Part shown: positions 14,089-29,171 of the stretch, in pieces
Layout of the letters: each line of letters opens with the position of its first letter
Numbering within the stretch: position 1 is the stretch's first letter
DNA from: Acutalibacteraceae bacterium
Lineage (GTDB): Bacteria; Bacillota; Clostridia; Oscillospirales; Acutalibacteraceae
Reading direction: 5' to 3'
Assembly: GCA_045596185.1 (NCBI GenBank)
Contig: JAZOBW010000071.1
Location: 1 to 33,786, forward strand
DNA: 33,786 bases
Notes under the pieces: generated by a model
What the model saw: the letters and a program-made list of their open reading frames with translations, nothing else
Told to the model about the DNA's origin: nothing
The model's database searches: none
Position numbers and translations under genes: made by a program

Positions 14089-15267
14089 TTATTCAATAAT
14101 ACGGCCCCGTTTTATACTGTCGTTTCCGAAACGGTCTCTTACCGACTGTATCGAGTCCTCTATCTGTTCCTGACGCATATCGTCCCTAGAAGAACCGAAA
14201 AGATCCTGCTGAACGGCAGGTTGTGCGGTCAGCCGTATCGCTCGTATTCCTACCGAACGAAGCGGCTGTTCAAACCGATAGTTTTCATCGAATATCTTCA
14301 TTCCCTTTTTGGCTATCGGTATTGCCGAATTCATCGCTTCGGGTATACTTTTTGAAAACTCTTTTACCTTAAGTGAAATATTACGCGTGTGTATCTGTAT
14401 TCCCATTGCATAAAGTCCCTTTTTGCGAAGTTGGCGTGATATGTCCTCCGAAAGTTCTAAAAATATCTTCCACACCTCTTCGCGGTCGGTTATATCGTGG
14501 TCGGGAGTCACGGAACGACCAACACTTTTCGGTAGGTAATCGTCACTCACGGGTGTTACCGGCGAACAATCAAGTCCCAATGCATAATCCCTTACCATCT
14601 GCCCCGATTTTCCCAATAACCGTGTAAGCATATCCGGATTGCACCTTGCCGCGTCGCCAATCGTAAATACGCCTAATTCCTTAAGCCGTTCGGCGGTACT
14701 GTTACCGACAAAGAGTAATTTCCTTATAGGATAATCCCATATCTTTTCCCTGAAATCTTCCTTTTTTATCGACATTATGCTGTTATAGCCTGCATTATCG
14801 GAGCCGAGTTTTGCAAATATTTTATTAAAACTCACCCCTATGGATACCGTGATACCAAGTTCGGTTTTTATATCGTTTTTTATTCTTTCGGCTATCGTTT
14901 CTCCCGAACCGAAAAGAATCGTGCTTCCCGTAACATCAAGCCAACACTCATCAATACCGAAAGGCTCAATAAGGTCGGTGTAGCGCTCATATATCCTGTG
15001 CGCCGACTGTGAATATTCAGAATACTTTTTATAATCGGGGGAAAGTGTTACAAGTGCAGGGCATTTGCGCTTTGCCTCCCACACAGCCTCTGCGGTTTTT
15101 ACACCCATAGACTTTGCTATCTCGTTCTTTGCAAGTACTATTCCGTGGCGATCCTCGGTGCTTCCGCATACCGCAACCGGAAGATCGTACAGCGTAGGGT
15201 TCGACAGTAATGAAACCGATGCAAAAAAATTATTAAGATCACAATGCAGTATGATCCTATCCTTCAT
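14089..15267 (-). CDS. Y-family (DinB/UmuC-like) translesion DNA polymerase
   Basis: The start is set at the ATG at 15267 (MKDRIILHCDLNNFFASV), preceded by a strong RBS (AGGAGG). Y-family motifs DLNNFFASV and GIDECWLDVTG are present. The listed 17-codon N-terminal extension is rejected. Confidence 0.9.
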   Translation of the reverse strand: MKDRIILHCDLNNFFASVSLLSNPTLYDLPVAVCGSTEDRHGIVLAKNEIAKSMGVKTAEAVWEAKRKCPALVTLSPDYKKYSEYSQSAHRIYERYTDLIEPFGIDECWLDVTGSTILFGSGETIAERIKNDIKTELGITVSIGVSFNKIFAKLGSDNAGYNSIMSIKKEDFREKIWDYPIRKLLFVGNSTAERLKELGVFTIGDAARCNPDMLTRLLGKSGQMVRDYALGLDCSPVTPVSDDYLPKSVGRSVTPDHDITDREEVWKIFLELSEDISRQLRKKGLYAMGIQIHTRNISLKVKEFSKSIPEAMNSAIPIAKKGMKIFDENYRFEQPLRSVGIRAIRLTAQPAVQQDLFGSSRDDMRQEQIEDSIQSVRDRFGNDSIKRGRIIE

Positions 15268-15318
15268 TACGCCGCCTCCTCTACGAATCGCGTTAAAATA
15301 ATTATACCACATAATCAA

Positions 15319-15639
15319 TCAGTTTTGAACACAAAATTTCTCCAGTGCCTTTATGTGCAACCTTTCTATCTGTCGTTTGCTGTAGTTGAATTGATAACTT
15401 ATCTCCTCAAGCGTTCTTCCGCATATATATTTCTGCGAAAGTATCTCGCTTAGAATATCGCCATCGGTGGCGTCGATACAGTCCTCGATAAGATTTCTAA
15501 ATCTGCGACACTCCCTTATGGACGCACGATATCTGTCTGCCCTTTCAGGACAACGTTTTCGCATCTCCTCAAGTCGCTGTATCTTGGATTGCTGTATCCT
15601 ATACTGCTTCAAAAAGCGCTTCTTTTCCTCAATCGTCAT
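15319..15639 (-). CDS. Small sigma-70 region-4-like HTH protein (phage/ICE-type, DUF1492/ArpU-like)
   Basis: 106 aa. An N-terminal coiled segment is followed by GRTLEEISYQFNYSKRQIERLHIKALEKF, a region-4-type HTH. Its start abuts the stop of the upstream zinc-ribbon gene (TGAATG). Confidence 0.6.
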   Translation of the reverse strand: MTIEEKKRFLKQYRIQQSKIQRLEEMRKRCPERADRYRASIRECRRFRNLIEDCIDATDGDILSEILSQKYICGRTLEEISYQFNYSKRQIERLHIKALEKFCVQN

Positions 15640-16026
15640 TCAGTGTCCTCCCTTTCCCGAAATGCTGGGTAATATCCTTGCGACATACTGTCCGTATGTA
15701 TAGCAGGTCTTGTTGCGGCGATTATAATCTTCGAGTTCCAATGTAATCATATTGATGGGATCAACTGCATTCCTGCGACGCCGCCGCTGCTCATATCGCC
15801 AAAGTTTCATTCCCGCATTTCTGCAGGAATCACTGCAAAAATCCCGTCGATCGGTCAGAATGATTCCGCAGTGATGACACCGCCTTATCTTATTTTCCTT
15901 TATTTTGCTGCTATTGCAAAAAGGACAGACCGCAACGCCTTCAAAAGGCGGTTCGTCAAAACCGTGTTCCTCAAAAAATAGATCAAATTTTTCAAATTTT
16001 CTACCACAGTCCGTACAAATGTACAT
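15640..16026 (-). CDS. Cys-rich double zinc-ribbon protein of unknown function
   Basis: The start is set at the ATG at 16026 (MYICTDCGRKF), after the RBS AAAGGAG. It has CxxC...CxxC, then CxxC...FCSDSC, then an Arg-rich tract (RRRRR). Confidence 0.6.
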   Translation of the reverse strand: MYICTDCGRKFEKFDLFFEEHGFDEPPFEGVAVCPFCNSSKIKENKIRRCHHCGIILTDRRDFCSDSCRNAGMKLWRYEQRRRRRNAVDPINMITLELEDYNRRNKTCYTYGQYVARILPSISGKGGH

Positions 16027-16052
16027 ACAATACACTCCTTTCAAATTTCCTC

Positions 16053-16081
16053 TTGACAATTACGAAAATTCGGTATATAAT
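16053..16081 (+). promoter_or_regulatory. Perfect-consensus SigA promoter (TTGACA-17-TATAAT) reading toward xre/immA/M/R
   Basis: ttgaca at 16053-16058 and tataat at 16076-16081. The spacer carries ttacgaaaattcggta, an imperfect copy of the TTACG-N6-CGTAA motif. Confidence 0.75.
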
Positions 16082-16180
16082 GCGAATTGCAAGGAAGATT
16101 TTTTCGAGTTCTCGTAATTACGATTACATTATATTACGCTTTTTCGTAAATGTCAAGTGCAATTTTACGAATTCGCGTAA
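16060..16180. repeat. Set of operator-like palindromes built on the half-site TTACG/CGTAA
   Basis: Four copies: ttacg-aaaatt-cggta (16060-16075), cgtaattacg (16113-16122), ttacg-cttttt-cgtaa (16134-16149) and ttacg-aattcg-cgtaa (16165-16180). Confidence 0.65.
16128..16156 (-). promoter_or_regulatory. Perfect-consensus SigA promoter (TTGACA-17-TATAAT on the minus strand) reading toward the zinc-ribbon/sigma4-like/polymerase operon
   Basis: The minus strand reads gcacTTGACAtttacgaaaaagcgtaaTATAATg. The 17-nt spacer is almost entirely the palindrome at 16134-16149. Confidence 0.75.
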
Positions 16181-16201
16181 AATTCGAAAGGAAGTATTTT
16201 T

Positions 16202-16534
16202 ATGCCGGATATCTACACTAGAATTGAGGAACTTTGCCGAAAGAAAGGAATCAATGTAACCCAACTTTGCACAGCCTGCAATATCCCCCGTGCATCGCTG
16301 TCGGATTACAAGACGGGAAGAAAAAAAACACTGTCCGCCGAAGTACTGTCAAAAATAGCAGACTTTTTCGGTGTCAGTGTCGATTTTCTGTACGGAAAGG
16401 AACCACGCTTTGCAGATGAACAATCCCTTAAAGTTGCACTTTTCGGTGGTAGTTCCGATGTTACTGATGAAATGTGGGACGAAGTTAAACGTTATGCGCA
16501 ATATATCAAGGAGAGGAATAATGGAAACCGCTAA
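16202..16534 (+). CDS. XRE-family HTH transcriptional repressor (ImmR/DdrO-like partner of the downstream metalloprotease)
   Basis: 110 aa. IEELCRKKGINVTQLCTACNIPRASLSDYKTGRKK is a classic Cro/C1-type HTH, followed by a C-terminal tail of about 45 aa. RBS AAAGGAAG. The 3' end overlaps the next gene by 14 nt. Confidence 0.85.
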   Translation: MPDIYTRIEELCRKKGINVTQLCTACNIPRASLSDYKTGRKKTLSAEVLSKIADFFGVSVDFLYGKEPRFADEQSLKVALFGGSSDVTDEMWDEVKRYAQYIKERNNGNR

Positions 16535-16916
16535 TCTTTACCGTATTGCCGAAAATAACGGTATAGCCGTAGACCGATTTCCCCTGCCCGAAAACCGCTC
16601 ATTAGCATTTATGGATGGTGACGCTATGTATGTAGCCATCGATAAAAACATACGCGGTGCAGAAGAACGGGTGTGCCTCGCACACGAGTTAGGCCACTGC
16701 CAAACCGCAAGTTTTTACAACATATATTCACCGCTCGATGTACGCCAAAAGCACGAAAGACGTGCCGATAAGTGGGCGATTAAGGCGCTAATCCCGAAAT
16801 CGGTCTATCGTAATGCTCTTAAACGGGGATACGACAACATCTATTCCCTTGCCGAATTTTTCGGCGTAACAGCCGATTTTATGAAAAAGGCTGTTGAATT
16901 TTATAGTAATTCGTAA
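16521..16916 (+). CDS. ImmA/IrrE-family (COG2856, M78) zinc metallopeptidase
   Basis: The start is set at the ATG at 16521 after the RBS AAGGAGAGG. HExxH is present in CLAHELGHCQT. Its size and its position just after an XRE gene are typical of ImmA/IrrE. Confidence 0.8.
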   Translation: METANLYRIAENNGIAVDRFPLPENRSLAFMDGDAMYVAIDKNIRGAEERVCLAHELGHCQTASFYNIYSPLDVRQKHERRADKWAIKALIPKSVYRNALKRGYDNIYSLAEFFGVTADFMKKAVEFYSNS

Positions 16917-16947: not shown

Positions 16948-17895
16948 ATGCCGCAAGAAAAGGCGCCACGCAACAAAACTATAGATACAACTGTATCTGA
17001 CGGCAAACACTATCTTGACCGTTGCATAAAAATAGAAACGGTTCAAAACGATCTTGACAAAATTCTCGACAAAACCATTCATGGAAATACATTTGAAGTT
17101 TCTTCGCTTTTACCACGTGAAAGCGTTGACTTGATAATCGCAGACCCACCATATAACCTTACAAAAAACTACAATGGAACTTTATTCAAAAAGAAAAATG
17201 CCTCCGAATACGAACTATATACAAGAAAATGGATAGAAAGTATATATCCGCTCCTGAAACCCAACGGTTCTATTTATGTTTGTTGTGATTGGGAGACCAG
17301 TTTAATAATCGGAAACATTCTTAATGAATATTTTACCGTGCGTAACCGCATAACCTGGCAACGCGAAAAAGGCAGGGGTGCGAAGGATAATTGGAAAAAT
17401 GGAATGGAGGATATATGGTACGCAACAAAATCAAATACATTCACATTTAATGTAGATCGGGTTAAAATCCGCAAAAAGGTAATTGCCCCATACAAAGTTG
17501 ATGGTGTGCCAAAAGACTGGGAAGAAACCGATAACGGAAATTTCAGGGATACATACCCTTCAAATTTCTGGGATGATATTACCATTCCCTTCTGGTCAAT
17601 GCCGGAAAACACTGCGCATCCCACCCAGAAATCAGAAAAATTGTATGCCAAAATCATTCTTGCAAGTTCAAATCCTAATGACATTGTATTTGACCCATTT
17701 CTTGGTTCAGGAACAACCAGTGTTGTTGCAAAAAAACTGGGTAGACATTACATTGGAATAGAAATAGAAGACCAATATTGTCTTTGGGCAGAACAGCGGT
17801 TGGAAATGGCGGAATCGCAACGCGATATACAAGGATTTACAAATAATGTTTTTTGGGAAAGAAATACATTGAACCAACAGTCTAAACAAAAATAA
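16948..17895 (+). CDS. Beta-class N6-adenine or N4-cytosine DNA methyltransferase (PF01555-type)
   Basis: Motif IV DLIIADPPYNL lies upstream of motif I FDPFLGSGTTSVVA (order IV then I, which defines the beta class). The start is set at the ATG at 16948. Confidence 0.9.
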   Translation: MPQEKAPRNKTIDTTVSDGKHYLDRCIKIETVQNDLDKILDKTIHGNTFEVSSLLPRESVDLIIADPPYNLTKNYNGTLFKKKNASEYELYTRKWIESIYPLLKPNGSIYVCCDWETSLIIGNILNEYFTVRNRITWQREKGRGAKDNWKNGMEDIWYATKSNTFTFNVDRVKIRKKVIAPYKVDGVPKDWEETDNGNFRDTYPSNFWDDITIPFWSMPENTAHPTQKSEKLYAKIILASSNPNDIVFDPFLGSGTTSVVAKKLGRHYIGIEIEDQYCLWAEQRLEMAESQRDIQGFTNNVFWERNTLNQQSKQK

Positions 17896-17913
17896 AAATA
17901 AGGATGTGTTATT

Positions 17914-18579
17914 ATGAATCCGATCTTAAGCGACGATACCATAAAAGAAGTAGAAAATAGTATAATAAACCGGCTAAACAAACTTCCAGATTTTCAAAAT
18001 CCTCGCATCAATAACAGTCCCCGTTCTATTGGAGATACCGTTCAAGATGTGATGGGAGAAATTTTACCATCGTGTTTTCCGGAAAAATTGTTAAAAAATT
18101 TCAGCGCTGATTTTGCAAGACGAGCGATGGCAGACCTTGCTTTTTCGGATGTAGATGACAACTACTATATAGTGGATATTAAAACACACAACACATCTAC
18201 CGATTTCAATATGCCCAATCTAACCTCCGTTGAACGACTGGCGCGATTTTACGAAGATGATAAAAACTATTTTATGGTTTTACTAGTCGAATATTCTGTT
18301 GTTAATGGAGTTTTGACATTTAATAATGCCAATTTTGTTCCCATAGAAAATTTGAAATGGGATTGTCTAACTATCGGAGCACTGGGTTGGGGACAGATTC
18401 AGATTGCAAATTCAAATATTGTTAATATTGACAGAAGTCTTAACCGAGTCGATTGGATGCTTTCGCTTTGTGACGCACTTGATATTTTCTACCCAAAAGA
18501 AATAGAAAAAATAACAGCAAGAATAAATCGATTTTGTTCCGTTCGTAAATTTTGGGAAAATAAAAAGAACAATTTATAA
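17914..18579 (+). CDS. Putative type II restriction endonuclease (PD-(D/E)XK-like), partner of the methyltransferase
   Basis: 221 aa, starting 19 nt after the MTase stop. The candidate catalytic core is D...YIVDIKT (D-x(n)-D-I-K, an EcoRV-like pattern). No other recognisable domain. The gene is A+T-rich. Confidence 0.5.
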   Translation: MNPILSDDTIKEVENSIINRLNKLPDFQNPRINNSPRSIGDTVQDVMGEILPSCFPEKLLKNFSADFARRAMADLAFSDVDDNYYIVDIKTHNTSTDFNMPNLTSVERLARFYEDDKNYFMVLLVEYSVVNGVLTFNNANFVPIENLKWDCLTIGALGWGQIQIANSNIVNIDRSLNRVDWMLSLCDALDIFYPKEIEKITARINRFCSVRKFWENKKNNL

Positions 18580-20128: not shown

Positions 20129-20157
20129 ATTATAAAACAAACCGTAGTTTATTTCAA
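20129..20157 (-). promoter_or_regulatory. SigA-type promoter for the SBP gene (TTGAAA-17-TATAAT on the minus strand)
   Basis: Reverse complement of tttcaa (20152-20157) and attata (20129-20134) with a 17-nt spacer. Confidence 0.55.
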
Positions 20158-20187
20158 CAATAAAAAATAAACTGTAAAGAATAAAAC

Positions 20188-20216
20188 TTGACATATAGAA
20201 TGTATGGTGTTATAAT
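20188..20216 (+). promoter_or_regulatory. SigA-type promoter for ylxM-ffh (TTGACA-17-TATAAT with an extended -10 TG)
   Basis: ttgaca at 20188-20193 and tataat at 20211-20216, preceded by tgt. Confidence 0.65.
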
Positions 20217-24521: not shown

Positions 24522-26021
24522 ATGCTGAAAAAAGAAAAAATCAGCAAATATCTGAACGCTTTTCTGAATTTATTTGCTGTTTCTCTTCCGTTGTTACTGT
24601 GCCGATTTATCAGCGGCGGAAGAATAATGCAATGGTTTACACCATTCGCCGTTTTTGGTGACGAGACCGGCTATTTCAGGGTTACGAAATCATTTGTAGA
24701 AGCGAAAGGATATTTCGGAAACTACGGTGTTACCCTTGGCAGTGATGTTGCCGCAAACTTCGGCGGTTTTTCAGCGCACGGGCCAAAATACATCTGGCTT
24801 TACGGTGTTTTAGGAAAACTATTCGGTTGGGAACTGTACAGTATTCTGGTATTCAATATCATTATTCTTACCATCGCTGTGGCTGTTTTCCTTTATCTTG
24901 TGAAATTTAACAACAAGCAACTTATCTGCTTCTCGGCGCTTTTCGTTTCCTTCTTCCCGATGCTTTATTTCCTGATATCCGGAATGGTGGAGACCCTGCA
25001 CTTCGCATTTATTCTTATTTTTATGGGTCTGTTTTACCGTTTTTATCAGACAAGAAGCATCAAATGGTATGCCCTTTCATTCCTTTTTGTGTTTTTCCTT
25101 GTCTTCTTCAGAATAAATTATTTTATTCTGTTCTTCCCCCTTATCATTCTTTACAGACAGAAAAACATCAAGATGACCGTTATCGATTCGGTCGTAGCGC
25201 TTATACTAAGTGCATTTTCCTACATCTTTATCGGGCAGTTCAGTGCGCCCTATCCTTCTTATCTGGACGACATTATCGGAGCACTTAAATCTTTTGATAT
25301 CTTCGGTATGTTCGGTATAGTATTTTCTCATGCAGGAGCACAGTTGAAATCCTTCTTTGTCGGAAGCGGTGATTCGATATTTGAAACCGTGTTCAAATAT
25401 TGCTATATTATCGTAATGATATTTACAGCGGTACTCGGTATAATAAAGGCACGAAAAGAAAAGAAATTCAATCTTATGCTTTTCAGTTCAATAATAATGT
25501 TTGCCGAATTTATCATTGTTATATTCCTGTATGAATTCCAGTATTTCAGAGGTTTCAGAACGCTGTCGGTATTCTTGTTCATACCCTTTATATGTGCGAT
25601 ACTCAAAAACAGAAAAGTTGCATATATTATGTGCGCACTGCTAGTTATAGTGAATGTTTCGGTATCTTCGTTCTATCAGACCTATAAAAGTCAGGCCACC
25701 AATCTGTATAGTCCCAATTCACCGATAACTATGCAGAACGAAGTTGATGAACTGTTCACGCATATCCCCTGTGACACCAGCGGCGACAGATGGAAAAATA
25801 CCATAGCCATACACAACAGACAGACCTATACCAGCAGCGTTATGTTCGGCTTCCCCGGATATGCAGGAATGAACTATGTGCTATCGGAAGATTTTTCAAA
25901 AATATCAAAATGTCAATACATTTTAGCAGACAGTGACGAAATCGAAGATTCAATAAATAAAGACCTTTACGAAAAGGTTTGCGACAGTGCTTTCGGTGTG
26001 CTGTACAGCAAAACAAAATAA
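24522..26021 (+). CDS. Polytopic integral membrane protein, possibly a GT-C-fold glycosyltransferase; function unknown
   Basis: 499 aa with RBS GAGGTGA. About 11-12 hydrophobic segments are followed by a soluble C-terminal tail of roughly 110 aa. An acidic DE pair (FGDETGYF) lies in the first loop. Confidence 0.45.
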   Translation: MLKKEKISKYLNAFLNLFAVSLPLLLCRFISGGRIMQWFTPFAVFGDETGYFRVTKSFVEAKGYFGNYGVTLGSDVAANFGGFSAHGPKYIWLYGVLGKLFGWELYSILVFNIIILTIAVAVFLYLVKFNNKQLICFSALFVSFFPMLYFLISGMVETLHFAFILIFMGLFYRFYQTRSIKWYALSFLFVFFLVFFRINYFILFFPLIILYRQKNIKMTVIDSVVALILSAFSYIFIGQFSAPYPSYLDDIIGALKSFDIFGMFGIVFSHAGAQLKSFFVGSGDSIFETVFKYCYIIVMIFTAVLGIIKARKEKKFNLMLFSSIIMFAEFIIVIFLYEFQYFRGFRTLSVFLFIPFICAILKNRKVAYIMCALLVIVNVSVSSFYQTYKSQATNLYSPNSPITMQNEVDELFTHIPCDTSGDRWKNTIAIHNRQTYTSSVMFGFPGYAGMNYVLSEDFSKISKCQYILADSDEIEDSINKDLYEKVCDSAFGVLYSKTK

Positions 26022-26081: not shown

Positions 26082-29000
26082 TTATACTTTTTTAAGTATC
26101 TTTATCTTAGGGCTTTTAAGAATACCAAACGGTTTAGTGCGATATTCATAACACCAGTTCCAACCTTCGGTGCGCCACGCTTCAGGACCGATCCACTCTG
26201 TAGCGGAGTTAACAAGATGAAGTGCACCAAAACTGTTATAGCGATTTCCGAAAAGGGTAAGAGAAAGTGTGTGCTTTCCTTTTGCAACGTTCTCTATAAC
26301 CGTTTCATATGGCGGAAGAACAATTCGGTTTACACGTTTACCATCAAGTCCTACGCCGATTAGAGAACCGCGATAAAACTCGCTTTGTATTGAAACGGCA
26401 CCATCTTCCGGCATCTCAATTTCAATATCATATGTGATATTGGCACCGTAAAACGGCATACCCTGCGAAACAATATCCGAAAAACCGACCTTTTCCTGCT
26501 TTGCGGTTATCACGGCATCTGCACCCATCAGTTTTACACCGAAATCGCCAAGGATATAGCACCATTCAATATTGGTTCGTTCACCGAAAGGAACATCTAT
26601 TTCAATAACATTCTTTCCCTTTTTAATAAGAGAAAGCGGTATTTTGCTTATCGCCTCATCGGTAAAATAACCCACGATATTATTCTGAACCTTTTGTCCG
26701 TTAAGGGTAATATCTATAATGTCGGCATCCTCAACGGCGAGAAATGCATCTGTAAGTTCCAATTCACTTTCAAATTCATATTTAAGGTGCACTGTGTGCT
26801 CGGCAGGTTTGTCTGAAAGTACATAGGGCTGATTGGAATTTGGACGCATTCCAAAAATTTCCCTTGCCTTTTTAGATACACGCAAAACCTCTTCTGCACT
26901 CTGCCACTCGCCGTCGTCACAAGCGTATTCGGCACGGTCAAGAAGCAACACATTCGGTTCGCTGAGTGTATAAGGCACCGGCTTTTTAATATCAAATGCC
27001 GAAATGCACTCATACTGTGCGGAATCGGTATTCTCACAAACCGTGTCGTCAGACAATTTCAGCAAAAGGCTGGTGCAGGTGTGAAAATGCTTTTTGATAA
27101 GTGTTTTGCCGTCTTGATGTGTGTATTCGATAGGCATGATATTGCCCGACAGTGTATCATATTCGGTAGGGACAAATTCACCTTCAATAGTTATGGTAAG
27201 TTCATCACAATGCAGAGAATCCTTAACGCCGCAATACATTTCGGGATCCTTACTGTGTGCAATAAACAACCAACGGCAATCATTATCCTGACGGTAGTTA
27301 TAAATAAATCTGTCGGCCTGTCTGCCGTCATTATATGTAATCCCTATATTACGGATATCTTCCAAAGAATCTGAAAGCGACGACTTATCAAAACCGATAT
27401 TACAGCAGGCATTATACAGGTCCTCACATCCGTTTGATATAATGCCATCCATATATGTTGGCGCCTTGCCCATAAATATGACCCTACCGCCGGACTTTCT
27501 GAATCTTTCAAGAAAATCTACTGTGGTTTTGCGAAGTGTAATACAGGCAGGTACAATTATTACATCGTACTGCATTTTTCCTATCGCGCCAGGACGCTCC
27601 TCACAGGATAGTTGGGGAATAGTAGACTCACAGATAAAGTTAAAGTCGAAGTGTTCCTCCAAAAGCCACTCGGTAATATTTTTGAAGTTACTTTCGAGTG
27701 CAGCGATAGTTATAGCCGTTTGCGAATTTGGGCCCACGCTTATCCAGTAACTTTCAATCGGATGAATAACACCCAGTTTAACTATCGGTGTGCCTCGGGT
27801 AAGGGCGGTATTAAGACGTGCAAAGTGATCTTCTATATAAGGATATTCCTTATACCACGGTGACTGATAGCCTATTGCAGCAGGAAAGTCACGCTTTGCC
27901 TCACCCTTCATAGATACCCACGCAAGGTGTGGCACACGAACGGTAACACCCAAAGCCGCCTGCCAGTCGCCCTGAAGTTTATGACCCCTGAAATCAAAGT
28001 CCCAGTTGGTAACACCGTAAAGTTCGGAAAGCATACCCTCCTTGCCATACTGATGGACGGCAGACTGGGTCTGTTTTGCGGTTGTAAATTCGTGCCAGTT
28101 GCAAAGCATATCTATACCCGGTATAGTAAACTCTCCGTAACTGCGCATAGTTTCACCGCAGGTGGGTGCCTGACCGCCCAGTTGTGCTTCGCGAAGAAGA
28201 TGACCGGTCAGTGCGATACCGTTTTTATCACACCACTCACCCAACTGACCGCTGAAATTCTGTGAAAACTGATGCGCAAGAAAATCAAAATATCTGTATT
28301 TTATAATGGAATCGCTGTTATCCGCCTTTTTCCAAAAAAGTTCGGGAAGGCGGTCGAGAATATCCTCACCGTAATATTTTTGATACTCTTCTTCAAAATA
28401 GCGCGACCAACCGCACTTAATAACCCACCTGTATTCGGGGGTGGGAATTATCGCTTCACTGCCGTCCTGCATAACATTTGGCTCGTCGGTAAAGATGGCG
28501 GGTACGGTTTTATCAAAACGGTTGCCCACCTTTTCCTTATACCGCTCATGGGTAACATTTATAAACTCGGCAACCGATTCGCTGTCCATAGAGTCAAAAT
28601 AACTTCCGCCGTTATGCCACGCCGAATCCCACTCAACCTCGCAATAGGCGTACCACTTGTCGCCAAAGGCTTCATCATCAATAGAAATTCGACGACAGTT
28701 GGCAATAAAACCATCGCTGCCGATAGTAAGATCATAGGCGGCAAGAAAATATATGGTGCCTTTTTCGAGTGCTTCCTCTTTTGGAAGTGCCGATTCCACC
28801 TTATGGGGCAAAAGCACAAGCCTTTTTCTTCGAAATCTTTTGTTTTTAGTTACCTTGCCGCCGGCACCACCCGAAGGCCAACGGTCCTCGTCATAAAGCC
28901 ATGCAAGCATTTGTTCGTCTTCCGCTTTATCACAACAGGCCGCGACCATTTCCATGAACTCGTCCCCAAGGTATTCGGTAGCAAGACCGGTTCGGGAATG

Positions 29001-29171
29001 CATATGAAATCCGCCAAATCCCATCTGCTTCAAAAAGTCGATCTGACGCATAAGTTGAGCCTTATCGAGTTTGTTATTCCATGACCAGAAAGGTGTGGCA
29101 CGATATTCGCATGTTGGATTTTCAAAAAGTTCTTTGGAAAGTATTTGTTCACTATTTTTCTTATAAAGCAT
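26082..29171 (-). CDS. Large cytoplasmic glycoside hydrolase, family uncertain (possibly PF17132/GH106-related with a jelly-roll C-terminus)
   Basis: 1029 aa with no signal peptide. The N-terminal segment RATPFWSWNNKLDKAQLMRQIDFLKQMGFGGFHMHSRTGL resembles the start of a family of large bacterial glycosidases (from memory, unverified). Confidence 0.55.
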   Translation of the reverse strand: MLYKKNSEQILSKELFENPTCEYRATPFWSWNNKLDKAQLMRQIDFLKQMGFGGFHMHSRTGLATEYLGDEFMEMVAACCDKAEDEQMLAWLYDEDRWPSGGAGGKVTKNKRFRRKRLVLLPHKVESALPKEEALEKGTIYFLAAYDLTIGSDGFIANCRRISIDDEAFGDKWYAYCEVEWDSAWHNGGSYFDSMDSESVAEFINVTHERYKEKVGNRFDKTVPAIFTDEPNVMQDGSEAIIPTPEYRWVIKCGWSRYFEEEYQKYYGEDILDRLPELFWKKADNSDSIIKYRYFDFLAHQFSQNFSGQLGEWCDKNGIALTGHLLREAQLGGQAPTCGETMRSYGEFTIPGIDMLCNWHEFTTAKQTQSAVHQYGKEGMLSELYGVTNWDFDFRGHKLQGDWQAALGVTVRVPHLAWVSMKGEAKRDFPAAIGYQSPWYKEYPYIEDHFARLNTALTRGTPIVKLGVIHPIESYWISVGPNSQTAITIAALESNFKNITEWLLEEHFDFNFICESTIPQLSCEERPGAIGKMQYDVIIVPACITLRKTTVDFLERFRKSGGRVIFMGKAPTYMDGIISNGCEDLYNACCNIGFDKSSLSDSLEDIRNIGITYNDGRQADRFIYNYRQDNDCRWLFIAHSKDPEMYCGVKDSLHCDELTITIEGEFVPTEYDTLSGNIMPIEYTHQDGKTLIKKHFHTCTSLLLKLSDDTVCENTDSAQYECISAFDIKKPVPYTLSEPNVLLLDRAEYACDDGEWQSAEEVLRVSKKAREIFGMRPNSNQPYVLSDKPAEHTVHLKYEFESELELTDAFLAVEDADIIDITLNGQKVQNNIVGYFTDEAISKIPLSLIKKGKNVIEIDVPFGERTNIEWCYILGDFGVKLMGADAVITAKQEKVGFSDIVSQGMPFYGANITYDIEIEMPEDGAVSIQSEFYRGSLIGVGLDGKRVNRIVLPPYETVIENVAKGKHTLSLTLFGNRYNSFGALHLVNSATEWIGPEAWRTEGWNWCYEYRTKPFGILKSPKIKILKKV

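What the first reader, a model, noticed from the sequence alone, without database searches (positions are those of the whole stretch)
16026..16202. Face-to-face perfect-consensus promoters with TTACG-N6-CGTAA operators: a genetic-switch architecture
The sequence directly shows a plus-strand TTGACA-17-TATAAT (16053-16081) and a minus-strand TTGACA-17-TATAAT (16128-16156). They point toward each other, so the two transcripts should overlap by roughly 30 nt at their 5' ends. This resembles the convergent lytic/lysogenic promoters of P2/186-type phages. Four palindromes share the half-site TTACG/CGTAA. One fills the spacer of the minus-strand promoter (16134-16149). An imperfect copy fills the spacer of the plus-strand promoter (16060-16075). 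One sits at the predicted minus-strand transcription start (cgtaattacg, 16113-16122). One lies just upstream of the xre RBS (16165-16180). Two consensus promoters with operators inside their spacers imply strong default expression that is held off by a repressor, presumably the XRE protein, plus possible transcriptional interference.
Basis: seen in the sequence. Interest (0 to 1): 0.75.

Follow-up and report, generated by a model that had tools for sequence, protein, structure and literature searches.

The report
Face-to-face promoter switch controlling DinB cassette
Two perfect promoters that fire toward each other, with four repressor sites in and around them, form a control region of about 130 bp that is conserved in about 80 gut Clostridia species, where it most likely lets an Xre repressor and its ImmA protease switch on an operon that includes an error-prone DNA polymerase.

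Summary
The window has two 12/12 sigma-70 promoters, P(+) at 16053-16081 and P(-) at 16156-16128. They face each other, and the predicted start sites are about 33 bp apart. There are four 16-bp TTACG-N6-CGTAA sites at 16060, 16102, 16134 and 16165.

The layout recurs upstream of xre in 76 of 80 related loci from Acutalibacteraceae and other Oscillospirales genomes. The spacer is 17 bp. The -10 boxes lie 45-47 bp apart in 74 of 80 loci. Operator spacing is about 41/32/31 bp. The sequence between these elements is not conserved.

The region sits in a fixed cassette, dinB <- sigma-region-4-like gene <- Zn-ribbon gene <- [switch] -> xre -> immA, among housekeeping genes. It is not in a phage.

Best explanation: Xre represses both promoters, the cargo promoter tightly and its own more weakly. 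ImmA cleaves Xre after DNA damage. The head-on promoters add mutual interference. Five out-group cassettes carry a LexA box at the cargo promoter, which supports a link to DNA damage.

Binding, cleavage and transcription starts are untested. I class it as a new variant of the ImmR/ImmA, DdrO/IrrE and CapH/CapP kind.

The parts
16053..16081 (+). P(+), the promoter of xre-immA: -35 TTGACA at 16053-16058, 17-bp spacer, -10 TATAAT at 16076-16081. Predicted start about 16088.
   Evidence: 12/12 match. It is the only rightward promoter-like site in the 175-bp intergenic region. Among 80 related loci it is 12/12 in 50 and 11/12 in 25, always with a 17-bp spacer.
16128..16156 (-). P(-), the promoter of the znr-sig4-dinB operon: -35 TTGACA at 16156-16151, 17-bp spacer, -10 TATAAT at 16133-16128. 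Predicted start about 16121.
   Evidence: 12/12 match. It is 12/12 in 68 of 80 related loci plus one 16-bp-spacer case, and the -10 boxes lie 45-47 bp apart in 74 of 80.
16060..16075 (.). O1, a weak operator inside the P(+) spacer (TTACGAAAATTCGGTA).
   Evidence: 2 mismatches. The family consensus is TTACGaaattaTGTAA. The right half is TGTAA in 51 of 76 loci, and the site is perfect in only 16 of 76.
16102..16117 (.). O2, an operator in the segment transcribed from both promoters (TTTCGAGTTCTCGTAA). It lies at about +14 to +29 of P(+) and +5 to +20 of P(-).
   Evidence: 1 mismatch. The position is conserved, 41 bp after O1 and 32 bp before O3, and the half-sites carry high information content.
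16134..16149 (.). O3, an exact operator that fills the P(-) spacer (TTACGCTTTTTCGTAA).
   Evidence: It is the only operator retained in the LexA-box variants.
16165..16180 (.). O4, an exact operator (TTACGAATTCGCGTAA). It lies just upstream of the P(-) -35 and just before the xre ribosome-binding site.
   Evidence: It is perfect in 53 of 76 loci and lies 30-32 bp after O3.
16088..16121 (.). Predicted region where the two transcripts overlap head-on. RNA polymerases bound at the two promoters should clash here.
   Evidence: Inferred from the positions of the -10 boxes. No transcription-start data exist.
16202..16534 (+). xre: a 110-aa repressor with an XRE helix-turn-helix domain and a two-helix C-terminal domain that carries an invariant ALFGG (residues 79-83).
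   Evidence: Pfam HTH_26 and HTH_3. PADLOC CapH, 7.5e-10, matched over the full length. Family alignment. AlphaFold2 model. Fold matches to SinR, DdrO, ImmR and CapH.
16521..16916 (+). immA: a 131-aa M78 (COG2856) metallopeptidase consisting of the peptidase domain only. It overlaps the end of xre by 14 nt.
   Evidence: Pfam Peptidase_M78. PHROG 87. PADLOC CapP, matching profile positions 24-142 of 242. HEXXH is present in 80 of 80 homologues, which are 105-144 aa long (all but one 129-144), and immA overlaps xre in 79 of 80.
15640..16026 (-). znr: a 128-aa protein with two Zn-ribbon-like Cys clusters and a basic tail. It is the first gene of the leftward operon; its ribosome-binding site GGAG is at 16038-16035.
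   Evidence: Weak Pfam match to Zn_Ribbon_TF. Present in 79 of 80 loci. Conserved CxxC motifs. Function unknown.
15319..15639 (-). sig4: a 106-aa protein with a helical hairpin followed by a sigma-70 region-4-like helix-turn-helix. Its start abuts the znr stop codon.
   Evidence: Pfam Sigma70_r4, 1e-4, below the curated cutoff. PHROG 36, transcriptional regulator, 2.6e-11. AlphaFold2 model with pLDDT 95.8. Top fold matches are all sigma region 4. Present in 76 of 80 loci.
14089..15318 (-). dinB: a Y-family DNA polymerase (Pol IV-like). The likely true start is the ATG at 15267. The motifs CDLNNFFASV and IDECWLDV are present.
   Evidence: Pfam IMS and IMS_C. NCBIfam DNA polymerase IV models, below their equivalog cutoffs. 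Present in 68 of 80 loci.

Best explanation
This is the control region of a self-contained chromosomal stress cassette: dinB <- sig4 <- znr <- [switch] -> xre -> immA.

Proposed mechanism:
- Xre dimers bind four phased TTACG-N6-CGTAA operators. The consensus is TTACGAAATTTCGTAA. The sites are spaced about 41, 32 and 31 bp apart, which puts them on one face of the helix.
- O3 fills the spacer of the cargo promoter P(-). O2 covers its early transcribed region and O4 lies just upstream of its -35. The consensus-strength P(-) is therefore held off tightly.
- Xre's own promoter P(+) carries only the weaker O1 in its spacer, and its transcript must pass O2-O4. The result is negative autoregulation.
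- On a DNA-damage-linked signal, the short M78 peptidase ImmA cleaves Xre. By analogy with ImmR, the cut would fall in the linker after the invariant ALF81. Both promoters are then freed.
- The two start sites face each other only about 33 bp apart, so polymerases at the two promoters should exclude or collide with each other. This couples cargo expression to resynthesis of Xre and ImmA.

Shown: the sequence elements, their geometry, their conservation and the gene content. Inferred: Xre binding, ImmA cleavage, the inducing signal and the interference.
For: - Two perfect convergent promoters and four operator sites are present in the window.
- The same layout occurs in 76 of 80 loci from different species. 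The spacer is 17 bp in 79 of 80. The distance between -10 boxes is 45-47 bp in 74 of 80. Operator spacings are 41/32/31 bp.
- In the alignment, the promoter hexamers and the TTAC/GTAA half-sites are the conserved columns, and the sequence between them is not conserved.
- 154 of 155 exact sites in 580 kb of related loci lie in this region.
- In some genomes all four sites have shifted together to TTACT...AGTAA, for example L036 with 7 of 8 half-sites. This implies that one factor reads all four.
- The half-sites lie one helical turn apart, as expected for an XRE dimer. Xre matches CapH over its full length and ImmA matches CapP, PHROG 87 and M78, with HEXXH in 80 of 80.
[quoted passage not shown] ImmA cuts ImmR at the equivalent place, F95-M96 (PMC8960796).
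- The cassette is conserved: immA in 80 of 80 loci, znr in 79, sig4 in 76 and dinB in 68.
- Five out-group cassettes carry a Cheo/LexA box (CGAACnnnnGTTCT) directly against the P(-) -10, in place of O2. This ties the cargo operon to the DNA-damage response.
- O1 is consistently the weakest site.
- There is precedent for RNA polymerases at close convergent promoters excluding each other (Ecl18kI, PMC2760811; phage 186, PMC3675496).
- An earlier gene-neighbourhood study noted DUF955 (M78) peptidases linked to DinB (PMC3765255).
Against: - There are no transcription-start, binding or cleavage data.
- The attempt to link Xre to operator specificity by covariation failed its control. Xre residue 41 (K/T versus I) explains 74% of the variance in half-site type, but DinB positions do equally well, so the signal reflects clade membership.
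- ImmA lacks the GAF and helix-turn-helix sensor domains through which IrrE and CapP sense single-stranded DNA. The inducing signal is therefore unknown.
- The window itself has no LexA box, so its link to DNA damage rests on analogy and on out-group loci.
- sig4 is also a DNA-binding protein and could be the operator reader, or a second one.
- About 8 loci lack dinB, so the polymerase is not the obligatory output.
Confidence: 0.6

Rival explanations
1. A true two-repressor toggle. The sigma-region-4-like protein sig4, possibly with znr, made from P(-), binds the same or overlapping sites, or the -35 elements. It shuts off P(+), so Xre and sig4 antagonise each other as CI and Apl/Cox do in phages 186 and P2.
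For: sig4 is a confidently modelled helix-turn-helix protein with a coiled-coil hairpin that could dimerise. It matches a phage transcription-regulator family. It belongs to the invariant core of the cassette, even where dinB is absent. The face-to-face layout is the one used by phages 186 and P2.
Against: Only one operator family is visible in the alignment, and no second conserved motif appears. Sigma region 4 domains normally read -35-like elements as monomers, not 16-bp palindromes. Both promoters are consensus strength, unlike the strong/weak pair in phage 186.
Confidence: 0.15
2. An autoregulated XRE-COG2856 toxin-antitoxin-like or selfish two-gene module. Its operators serve only autoregulation, and the leftward operon is an incidental neighbour.
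For: XRE-COG2856 pairs have been classed as candidate type II toxin-antitoxin modules or mobile stress modules (PMC2701414, listed). The cassette sits at different chromosomal positions in different species.
Against: The linkage to znr and sig4 is nearly invariant. The best-conserved promoter and three of the four operators serve the leftward operon. Out-group loci place a LexA box on that promoter. Composition matches the host genome.
Confidence: 0.1
3. A lysis-lysogeny or excision switch of a prophage or integrative element. This is the membership reading of the first reader's P2/186 comparison.
For: The Xre/ImmA pair is homologous to phage repressor/antirepressor pairs. An IMG/VR contig, L088, has an xre-immA pair with the same LKIALFGG motif next to a cro-like gene. 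One metagenome variant, L090, has a tyrosine-recombinase-like ORF beyond dinB.
Against: The flanking genes in the window and in relatives are housekeeping genes: pyrH, frr, polC-type polymerase, ffh, pheST, glyS and scpAB. Only 3 distant hits (36-40% identity) occur in 2.9 million viral contigs, against 166 in bacterial genomes. The one phage relative examined has back-to-back promoters, not face-to-face ones.
Confidence: 0.04
4. Xre is a controller (C) protein for the adjacent restriction-modification genes at 16948-18579.
For: A type II methyltransferase gene starts 32 nt after immA. C proteins are small XRE-type proteins that bind palindromic boxes.
Against: The methyltransferase and the following ORF are absent from all 80 relatives. 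They have a distinctly lower GC content, 0.35-0.37 against about 0.44. immA lies between xre and the methyltransferase gene.
Confidence: 0.02

Closest known systems
ImmR/ImmA of the Bacillus subtilis element ICEBs1
   Same: [quoted passage not shown] A short M78 peptidase with no GAF domain, encoded just downstream. Several repressor sites spread over two oppositely directed promoters. In ImmR the cleavage site, F95-M96, lies in the linker between the C-terminal helices (PMC8960796). Xre has an invariant F81-G82 at the equivalent place.
   Different: In ICEBs1 the regulators control excision and transfer genes of a mobile element, and its two promoters are described as counter-transcribed. Here the cargo is a chromosomal operon (Zn-ribbon protein, sigma-region-4-like protein, DinB), the promoters are convergent with overlapping transcripts, and there is no integrase. 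Sequence similarity is confined to the generic XRE fold (E 0.05).
CapH/CapP, DNA-damage-responsive regulators of CBASS and other immune operons
   Same: These are the best profile matches: Xre to CapH at 7.5e-10 over the full length, and ImmA to CapP at 1.1e-7. The repressor sits on the promoter of a neighbouring cargo operon and is cleaved in its C-terminal dimerisation domain after a Phe, at F82-R83 (bioRxiv 10.1101/2022.04.27.489752).
   Different: CapP has central helix-turn-helix and GAF domains that form the groove for single-stranded DNA, and in many homologues a cysteine switch (PMC13228613). The ImmA here is 131 aa and consists of the peptidase domain only. The cargo is a translesion polymerase operon, not an immune system.
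DdrO/IrrE (PprI) radiation and desiccation response of Deinococcus
   Same: A chromosomal, LexA-independent DNA-damage response run by an XRE repressor and a COG2856 peptidase (PMC8072749). The Xre model matches DdrO structurally.
   Different: DdrO controls a dispersed regulon through a different motif, and IrrE has a GAF-like domain. Here every detected operator is local. The two genes overlap and sit beside their target.
Face-to-face promoter switches: coliphage 186 pR/pL (and P2 Pe/Pc), and the Ecl18kI restriction-modification system
   Same: Divergent genes are driven by convergent promoters, so transcripts and polymerases meet head-on. A repressor acts on the promoter region. Interference between the promoters is part of the regulation (PMC3675496; PMC2760811).
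   Different: Those systems pair a strong promoter with a weak one, and the repressor relieves interference on its own promoter. Here both promoters are consensus and both carry operators. The starts are only about 33 bp apart. The context is neither a phage nor a restriction-modification system.
LexA-controlled dinB and mutagenesis cassettes (SOS response)
   Same: A Y-family polymerase operon under a repressor that can be inactivated by cleavage. Five related cassettes carry a canonical Firmicutes LexA box on the same promoter.
   Different: The window and 76 of 80 relatives have no LexA box. A separate metallopeptidase, not RecA-stimulated self-cleavage, would do the cutting.

Membership tests
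XRE repressor + M78/COG2856 peptidase regulatory pairs (ImmR/ImmA, DdrO/IrrE, CapH/CapP) | The repressor has an N-terminal XRE-type helix-turn-helix domain. | tested here: met
   Pfam HTH_26 at 2.3e-11 and HTH_3 at 5.1e-10. Fold matches to SinR, DdrO, ImmR and CapH N-terminal domains.
XRE repressor + M78/COG2856 peptidase regulatory pairs (ImmR/ImmA, DdrO/IrrE, CapH/CapP) | The partner is an M78 zinc metallopeptidase with an intact HEXXH motif. | tested here: met
   Pfam Peptidase_M78 at 2.7e-9. HELGH is present in the window protein, and HEXXH occurs in 80 of 80 homologues.
XRE repressor + M78/COG2856 peptidase regulatory pairs (ImmR/ImmA, DdrO/IrrE, CapH/CapP) | The two genes are adjacent and co-oriented. 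| tested here: met
   immA overlaps the 3' end of xre by 14 nt in the window, and overlaps xre in 79 of 80 loci.
XRE repressor + M78/COG2856 peptidase regulatory pairs (ImmR/ImmA, DdrO/IrrE, CapH/CapP) | The repressor has a C-terminal dimerisation region that carries the peptidase cleavage site. | tested here: inconclusive
   The model shows two C-terminal helices (73-80 and 89-108) with the invariant ALFGG in the linker, but pLDDT there is only 54-71. The CapH profile matches the full length. Cleavage itself cannot be tested here.
XRE repressor + M78/COG2856 peptidase regulatory pairs (ImmR/ImmA, DdrO/IrrE, CapH/CapP) | The repressor binds palindromic operators at the regulated promoters and is inactivated by the peptidase under stress. 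| not testable with these tools
   Conserved palindromes sit in and around both promoters. Binding and cleavage need experiments.
IrrE/CapP subtype (single-stranded-DNA-sensing peptidase) | Central helix-turn-helix and C-terminal GAF domains form the groove that binds single-stranded DNA. | tested here: not met
   ImmA is 131 aa, and its homologues are 105-144 aa (all but one 129-144). It aligns only to positions 24-142 of the 242-position CapP profile. Domain roles are taken from PMC13228613.
P2/186-type temperate-phage lysis-lysogeny switch | Face-to-face promoters drive divergent regulatory genes. | tested here: met
P2/186-type temperate-phage lysis-lysogeny switch | The switch lies in a temperate phage, between lysogenic (repressor, integrase) and lytic operons. 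| tested here: not met
   Housekeeping genes flank the cassette, and no integrase or phage genes are present. Only 3 distant relatives occur in viral contigs.
P2/186-type temperate-phage lysis-lysogeny switch | A second, antagonistic DNA-binding regulator (Apl/Cox) is made from the opposing promoter. | tested here: inconclusive
   sig4 is a helix-turn-helix protein made from P(-), but no second operator motif is conserved.
LexA (SOS) regulon of Firmicutes | A Cheo box, CGAAC-N4-GTTCG-like, lies at the promoter. | tested here: not met
   No site with at most 1 mismatch exists anywhere in the window. The box is present only in the out-group cassettes L067, L076, L078, L079 and L090.
Restriction-modification controller (C) proteins | The C gene is conserved together with, and just upstream of, the restriction-modification genes it controls. 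| tested here: not met
   The methyltransferase gene and the 17914-18579 ORF are absent from 80 of 80 relatives.

The most novel reading that the evidence does not exclude
A family of gut Clostridia (Acutalibacteraceae and relatives) may have replaced LexA control of a mutagenic polymerase cassette with a compact, self-contained Xre/ImmA module. In this reading the two head-on consensus promoters exclude each other physically. Each DNA copy would then express either the repressor side or the cargo side, giving pulsed or bistable, cell-to-cell variable expression of DinB and of a sigma-region-4-like factor. That factor may in turn switch on further genes. A peptidase-only ImmA would have to sense damage by a route different from the single-stranded-DNA/GAF mechanism of IrrE and CapP.
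Probability: 0.3. Interest if true: 0.75.

Novelty: new variant of a known kind. Interest (0 to 1): 0.6.

Why it matters
If the model holds, it matters for four reasons.
- A large, uncultured group of human and animal gut bacteria would control an error-prone polymerase through a repressor/protease pair instead of, or alongside, LexA. That bears on how mutagenesis is induced in the microbiome.
- The region is an unusually clean natural example of head-on consensus promoters with operators placed in the spacers. Its geometry has been held to within 1-2 bp across dozens of species, which makes it a good system for studying transcriptional interference and roadblocking outside phages.
- It pairs a minimal ImmA, consisting of the peptidase domain only, with a defined substrate and a candidate cleavage motif (ALF|GG). 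This could show how peptidases without sensor domains are activated.
- The roughly 130-bp element is a ready-made bidirectional, repressible promoter part for Firmicutes.

Tried and rejected
- Covariation between Xre residues and operator half-site type. Xre position 41 (K/T versus I) explains 74% of the variance in G-type versus T-type half-sites. The control shows DinB, ImmA and sig4 positions doing as well. I therefore reject it as specific evidence for Xre binding.
- RNA structure in the two 5' leaders. The z-scores are only about -1.8, and the pairing segments are not conserved in the family alignment. I dropped this line.
- A small upstream ORF or a 5' Shine-Dalgarno-like stabiliser after P(+). 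The ATG arises only where O2 reads TTATG, and a Shine-Dalgarno-like motif is present in 30 of 76 loci. It is not a core feature.
- Defence-system membership. PADLOC matched only the CapH/CapP and RmrA regulator profiles and the methyltransferase; no effector was found.
- Restriction-modification controller reading. Rejected, because the restriction-modification genes are absent in relatives.
- Sequence search for znr homologues. It found only 3 proteins, because of the word-index limit. I aligned znr from the loci instead, and its function remains unknown.
- Sequence searches of solved structures. These gave only generic XRE and sigma region 4 hits.
- Literature searches. I found no description of this cassette or of its promoter layout in the held library. 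The nearest is a gene-neighbourhood remark linking DUF955 peptidases to DinB (PMC3765255).
Full report
1. OBSERVATION

The 175-bp gap between a leftward ORF (ATG at 16026) and the rightward xre (ATG at 16202) contains two perfect sigma-70-type promoters.
- P(+) is TTGACA-17-TATAAT on the + strand at 16053-16081.
- P(-) is TTGACA-17-TATAAT on the - strand at 16156-16128.
- Matches with at most one mismatch occur 5 times in the window against 0.31 expected, and none of 100 shuffles reached 5.

P(+) lies to the left and fires rightward. P(-) lies to the right and fires leftward. They are therefore convergent although they serve divergent genes. If transcription starts 7 nt after each -10, the starts are at about 16088 and 16121, and the two transcripts share about 33-34 nt. 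No other promoter-like site fits between either promoter and its gene, so these are the only candidates for the two operons.

Four 16-bp sites of the form TTACG-N6-CGTAA are present:
- O1 at 16060-16075, 2 mismatches, inside the P(+) spacer.
- O2 at 16102-16117, 1 mismatch.
- O3 at 16134-16149, exact; together with one extra base it fills the P(-) spacer.
- O4 at 16165-16180, exact.

That 10-mer occurs in only 1 of 76 related loci, whereas the 16-mer position is conserved.

The window-wide count of sites is not remarkable by itself. The clustering and the spacing (42, 32 and 31 bp from start to start) are.

2. GENES ON EITHER SIDE

Rightward:
- xre, 110 aa, XRE helix-turn-helix.
- immA, 131 aa, M78 peptidase with the motif HELGH. 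It overlaps xre by 14 nt.

Leftward, as one tight operon:
- znr, 128 aa, with two Zn-ribbon-like Cys clusters.
- sig4, 106 aa.
- A Y-family polymerase of the Pol IV type.

An AlphaFold2 model of sig4 (pLDDT 95.8) is a helical hairpin followed by a three-helix helix-turn-helix. Its best structural matches are all sigma-factor region 4. It also matches a phage transcription-regulator family.

The rest of the window is core housekeeping:
- a PolC-type polymerase, ispG, rseP, dxr, cdsA, uppS, frr and pyrH on the left;
- ylxM, ffh, rimM and trmD on the right.

A type II methyltransferase gene and an unannotated ORF (16948-18579) follow immA. They have a lower GC content, 0.35-0.37 against about 0.44.

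3. COMPARATIVE EVIDENCE

The Xre protein belongs to a tight family, 59-85% identical and about 110 aa long, from uncultured gut Clostridia. A scan of one genome per species found 166 encoding stretches. I examined the best 80, which are mostly Acutalibacteraceae, Oscillospiraceae and Ruminococcaceae metagenome-assembled genomes.

Gene content in these 80 loci:

| Gene | Loci with it |
|---|---|
| immA | 80 |
| znr | 79 |
| sig4 | 76 |
| dinB | 68 |
| methyltransferase, following ORF, pyrH, frr | 0 |

- The absences of znr and sig4 are in loci where the contig ends short of that position.
- About 8 loci with enough flank truly lack dinB.
- Neighbours elsewhere are unrelated housekeeping genes (pheST, glyS, scpAB), and no integrase or phage genes appear.

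The conserved unit is therefore dinB <- sig4 <- znr <- [switch] -> xre -> immA. The restriction-modification genes are a window-specific insertion.

The intergenic architecture is conserved to a striking degree:
- The P(+) score is 12/12 in 50 loci and 11/12 in 25.
- P(-) scores 12/12 in 68 loci, plus one more with a 16-bp spacer.
- The spacer is 17 bp in 79 of 80 loci.
- The two -10 boxes are 45-47 bp apart in 74 of 80.
- Operator spacings are O1-O2 41 bp (58 of 76), O2-O3 32 bp (55 of 76) and O3-O4 31 bp (42 of 76). These equal about 4, 3 and 3 helical turns.
- In a 76-sequence alignment the information content peaks at the four promoter hexamers, the TTAC/GTAA half-sites and the ribosome-binding sites. 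The segments between them are unconserved.
- The consensus operator is the perfect palindrome TTACGAAATTTCGTAA.
- In 580 kb of these loci, 154 of 155 exact TTAC[GT]-N6-[CA]GTAA sites lie between -170 and -20 of the xre ATG.
- In some genomes all four sites have moved together to TTACT...AGTAA, for example L036 with 7 of 8 half-sites. This implies a single reader for all four.
- O1 is systematically the weakest site. Its right half is TGTAA in 51 of 76 loci, and it is perfect in 16 of 76, against 39-53 of 76 for O2-O4.

4. LINK TO DNA DAMAGE

Four out-group cassettes (L067, L076, L078, L079) and one metagenome contig found by pattern search (L090) have the same five genes. They keep O3 in the P(-) spacer. 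In place of O2, directly against the P(-) -10, they carry a canonical Firmicutes LexA (Cheo) box, CGAACnnnnGTTCT. In these loci the -10 boxes are 28-29 bp apart. No exact GAAC-N4-GTTC site was found upstream of xre in the other loci, and the window has no Cheo-like site with at most 1 mismatch.

This is the only direct sequence evidence that the leftward operon belongs to a DNA-damage response. In the main group the operators occupy the place that LexA holds in the out-group.

5. THE REGULATORS

- Xre matches the CapH profile over its whole length (7.5e-10). ImmA matches CapP (1.1e-7), but only its peptidase part, positions 24-142 of 242.
- All 80 ImmA homologues are short (105-144 aa, all but one of them 129-144) and keep HEXXH.
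- They therefore lack the helix-turn-helix and GAF domains that form the single-stranded-DNA groove of IrrE and CapP (PMC13228613). In this they resemble ICEBs1 ImmA.
- The Xre model has a five-helix helix-turn-helix domain, a low-confidence linker and two C-terminal helices (73-80 and 89-108). The invariant K77-x-A-L-F-G-G83 sits at the junction between them.
- ImmA cuts ImmR at F95-M96, in the linker between its two predicted C-terminal helices (PMC8960796). CapP cuts CapH at F82-R83.
- By analogy I predict cleavage after F81. This is an inference.

A distant phage relative in IMG/VR (L088) has an xre-immA pair with LKIALFGG next to a cro-like gene. Its promoters are back-to-back. The face-to-face layout is therefore a feature of the chromosomal cassette and was not inherited as such from that phage module.

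6. MECHANISM

Steps marked as shown or inferred:
- Shown: the geometry. O3 occupies the P(-) spacer. O2 lies at about +5 to +20 of P(-) and +14 to +29 of P(+). O4 lies just upstream of the P(-) -35 and just before the xre ribosome-binding site. O1 occupies the P(+) spacer.
- Inferred: Xre dimers, possibly cooperating across sites on the same helical face, hold P(-) off through three good sites.
- Inferred: Xre throttles its own synthesis through weak O1 and through roadblocks at O2-O4.
- Inferred: ImmA cleaves Xre on a damage-linked signal.
- Inferred: once freed, polymerases at two consensus promoters whose starts are about 33 bp apart cannot comfortably coexist, because open-complex footprints reach about +20. 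Occupancy or firing of one promoter then interferes with the other. This has been shown for Ecl18kI (PMC2760811) and for phage 186 pR/pL (PMC3675496).
- Inferred: this couples cargo expression to resynthesis of Xre and ImmA, and it could sharpen or pulse the response.

7. WHAT I COULD NOT ESTABLISH

- That Xre, and not sig4, reads the operators. Xre residue 41 tracks half-site type, but the control shows equally strong associations in DinB, ImmA and sig4. The signal is phylogenetic.
- The case for Xre rests on three points: the half-sites are one helical turn apart, relatives with an XRE/M78 pair regulate themselves and their cargo in this way, and no second motif is present.
- The inducing signal, the role of znr and sig4, and any real interference are all open.

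8. COMPARISON WITH KNOWN SYSTEMS, AND NOVELTY

- The regulators are members of the XRE + M78 class that includes ImmR/ImmA, DdrO/IrrE and CapH/CapP. They are of the short, ImmA-like subtype.
- The promoter layout works like the face-to-face switches of phages 186 and P2 and of Ecl18kI. The locus fails the membership test for a phage switch.
- A link between DUF955 (M78) peptidases and DinB was noted from gene neighbourhoods in 2013 (PMC3765255).
- I found no description of this cassette, its operators or its promoter geometry in the held literature.

I class it as a new variant of a known kind. It is of moderate to high interest because of the exceptional conservation of an unusual promoter geometry and the likely LexA-independent control of a mutagenic polymerase in gut Clostridia.

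Noticed in passing
L067, L076, L078 and L079 (about -90 to -79 of the xre ATG); L090 5274-5315: Out-group versions of the same five-gene cassette carry a canonical LexA/Cheo box, CGAACnnnnGTTCT, directly against the -10 of the cargo promoter. They have lost O2 and O4, and most have lost O1, but they keep O3. This suggests dual control by LexA and Xre in those species.
   Followed up: partly
window 16948-18579: A type II N6/N4 DNA methyltransferase gene and a 221-aa ORF with no family match (a possible restriction enzyme) start 32 nt after immA. Their GC content is 0.35-0.37 against about 0.44 around them, and they are absent from all 80 related loci. This looks like a recent insertion, and it might be read through from P(+).
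   Followed up: partly
window 16436-16450 (Xre residues 79-83): [quoted passage not shown] This is the same position as the ImmA cleavage site in ImmR (F95-M96). It is a candidate cleavage site, after F81.
   Followed up: partly
window 16091-16097 and 16188-16194: AAGGAAG followed by a T-rich run occurs twice: once right after the predicted P(+) start, and once as the xre ribosome-binding site. A Shine-Dalgarno-like motif sits at the first position in 30 of 76 relatives. It could be a 5' stabiliser or chance.
   Followed up: partly
window about 16085-16092 and 16118-16127; related loci: A semi-conserved YTTGCR lies 4-9 nt downstream of both -10 boxes, around the predicted starts, in many relatives. 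No explanation so far.
   Followed up: no
L003, L016, L018, L031, L036, L038, L043, L074: These cassettes have znr and sig4 but no dinB, with unrelated genes following. The invariant output of the switch is therefore the Zn-ribbon protein and the sigma-region-4-like protein, not the polymerase.
   Followed up: partly
L006, L007 and relatives (znr): The N-terminal CxxC...CPxC ribbon of znr is missing in one clade. The central CxxCG...YCxxxC cluster, the basic tract and the C-terminal YN..h.T..SYGqF motif are kept.
   Followed up: no
L088 5521-6720 (IMG/VR contig): A phage relative has an xre (LKIALFGG) and immA pair beside a 66-aa cro-like gene, with back-to-back promoters instead of face-to-face ones.
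   Followed up: partly
L090 7435-8679 (-): A tyrosine-recombinase-like ORF lies just beyond dinB in this metagenome contig. It is the only hint of mobility seen near any cassette.
   Followed up: no
window 20129-20216: A third perfect consensus promoter (20188-20216, +) precedes ylxM-ffh. An 11/12 divergent partner (20157-20129, -) lies before the start of the solute-binding-protein gene. This pair is an ordinary back-to-back arrangement, in contrast to the face-to-face one.
   Followed up: no
window 24522-26021 and 26082-29171: Two large ORFs, 499 aa and 1029 aa, have no Pfam match at E <= 1e-5.
   Followed up: no
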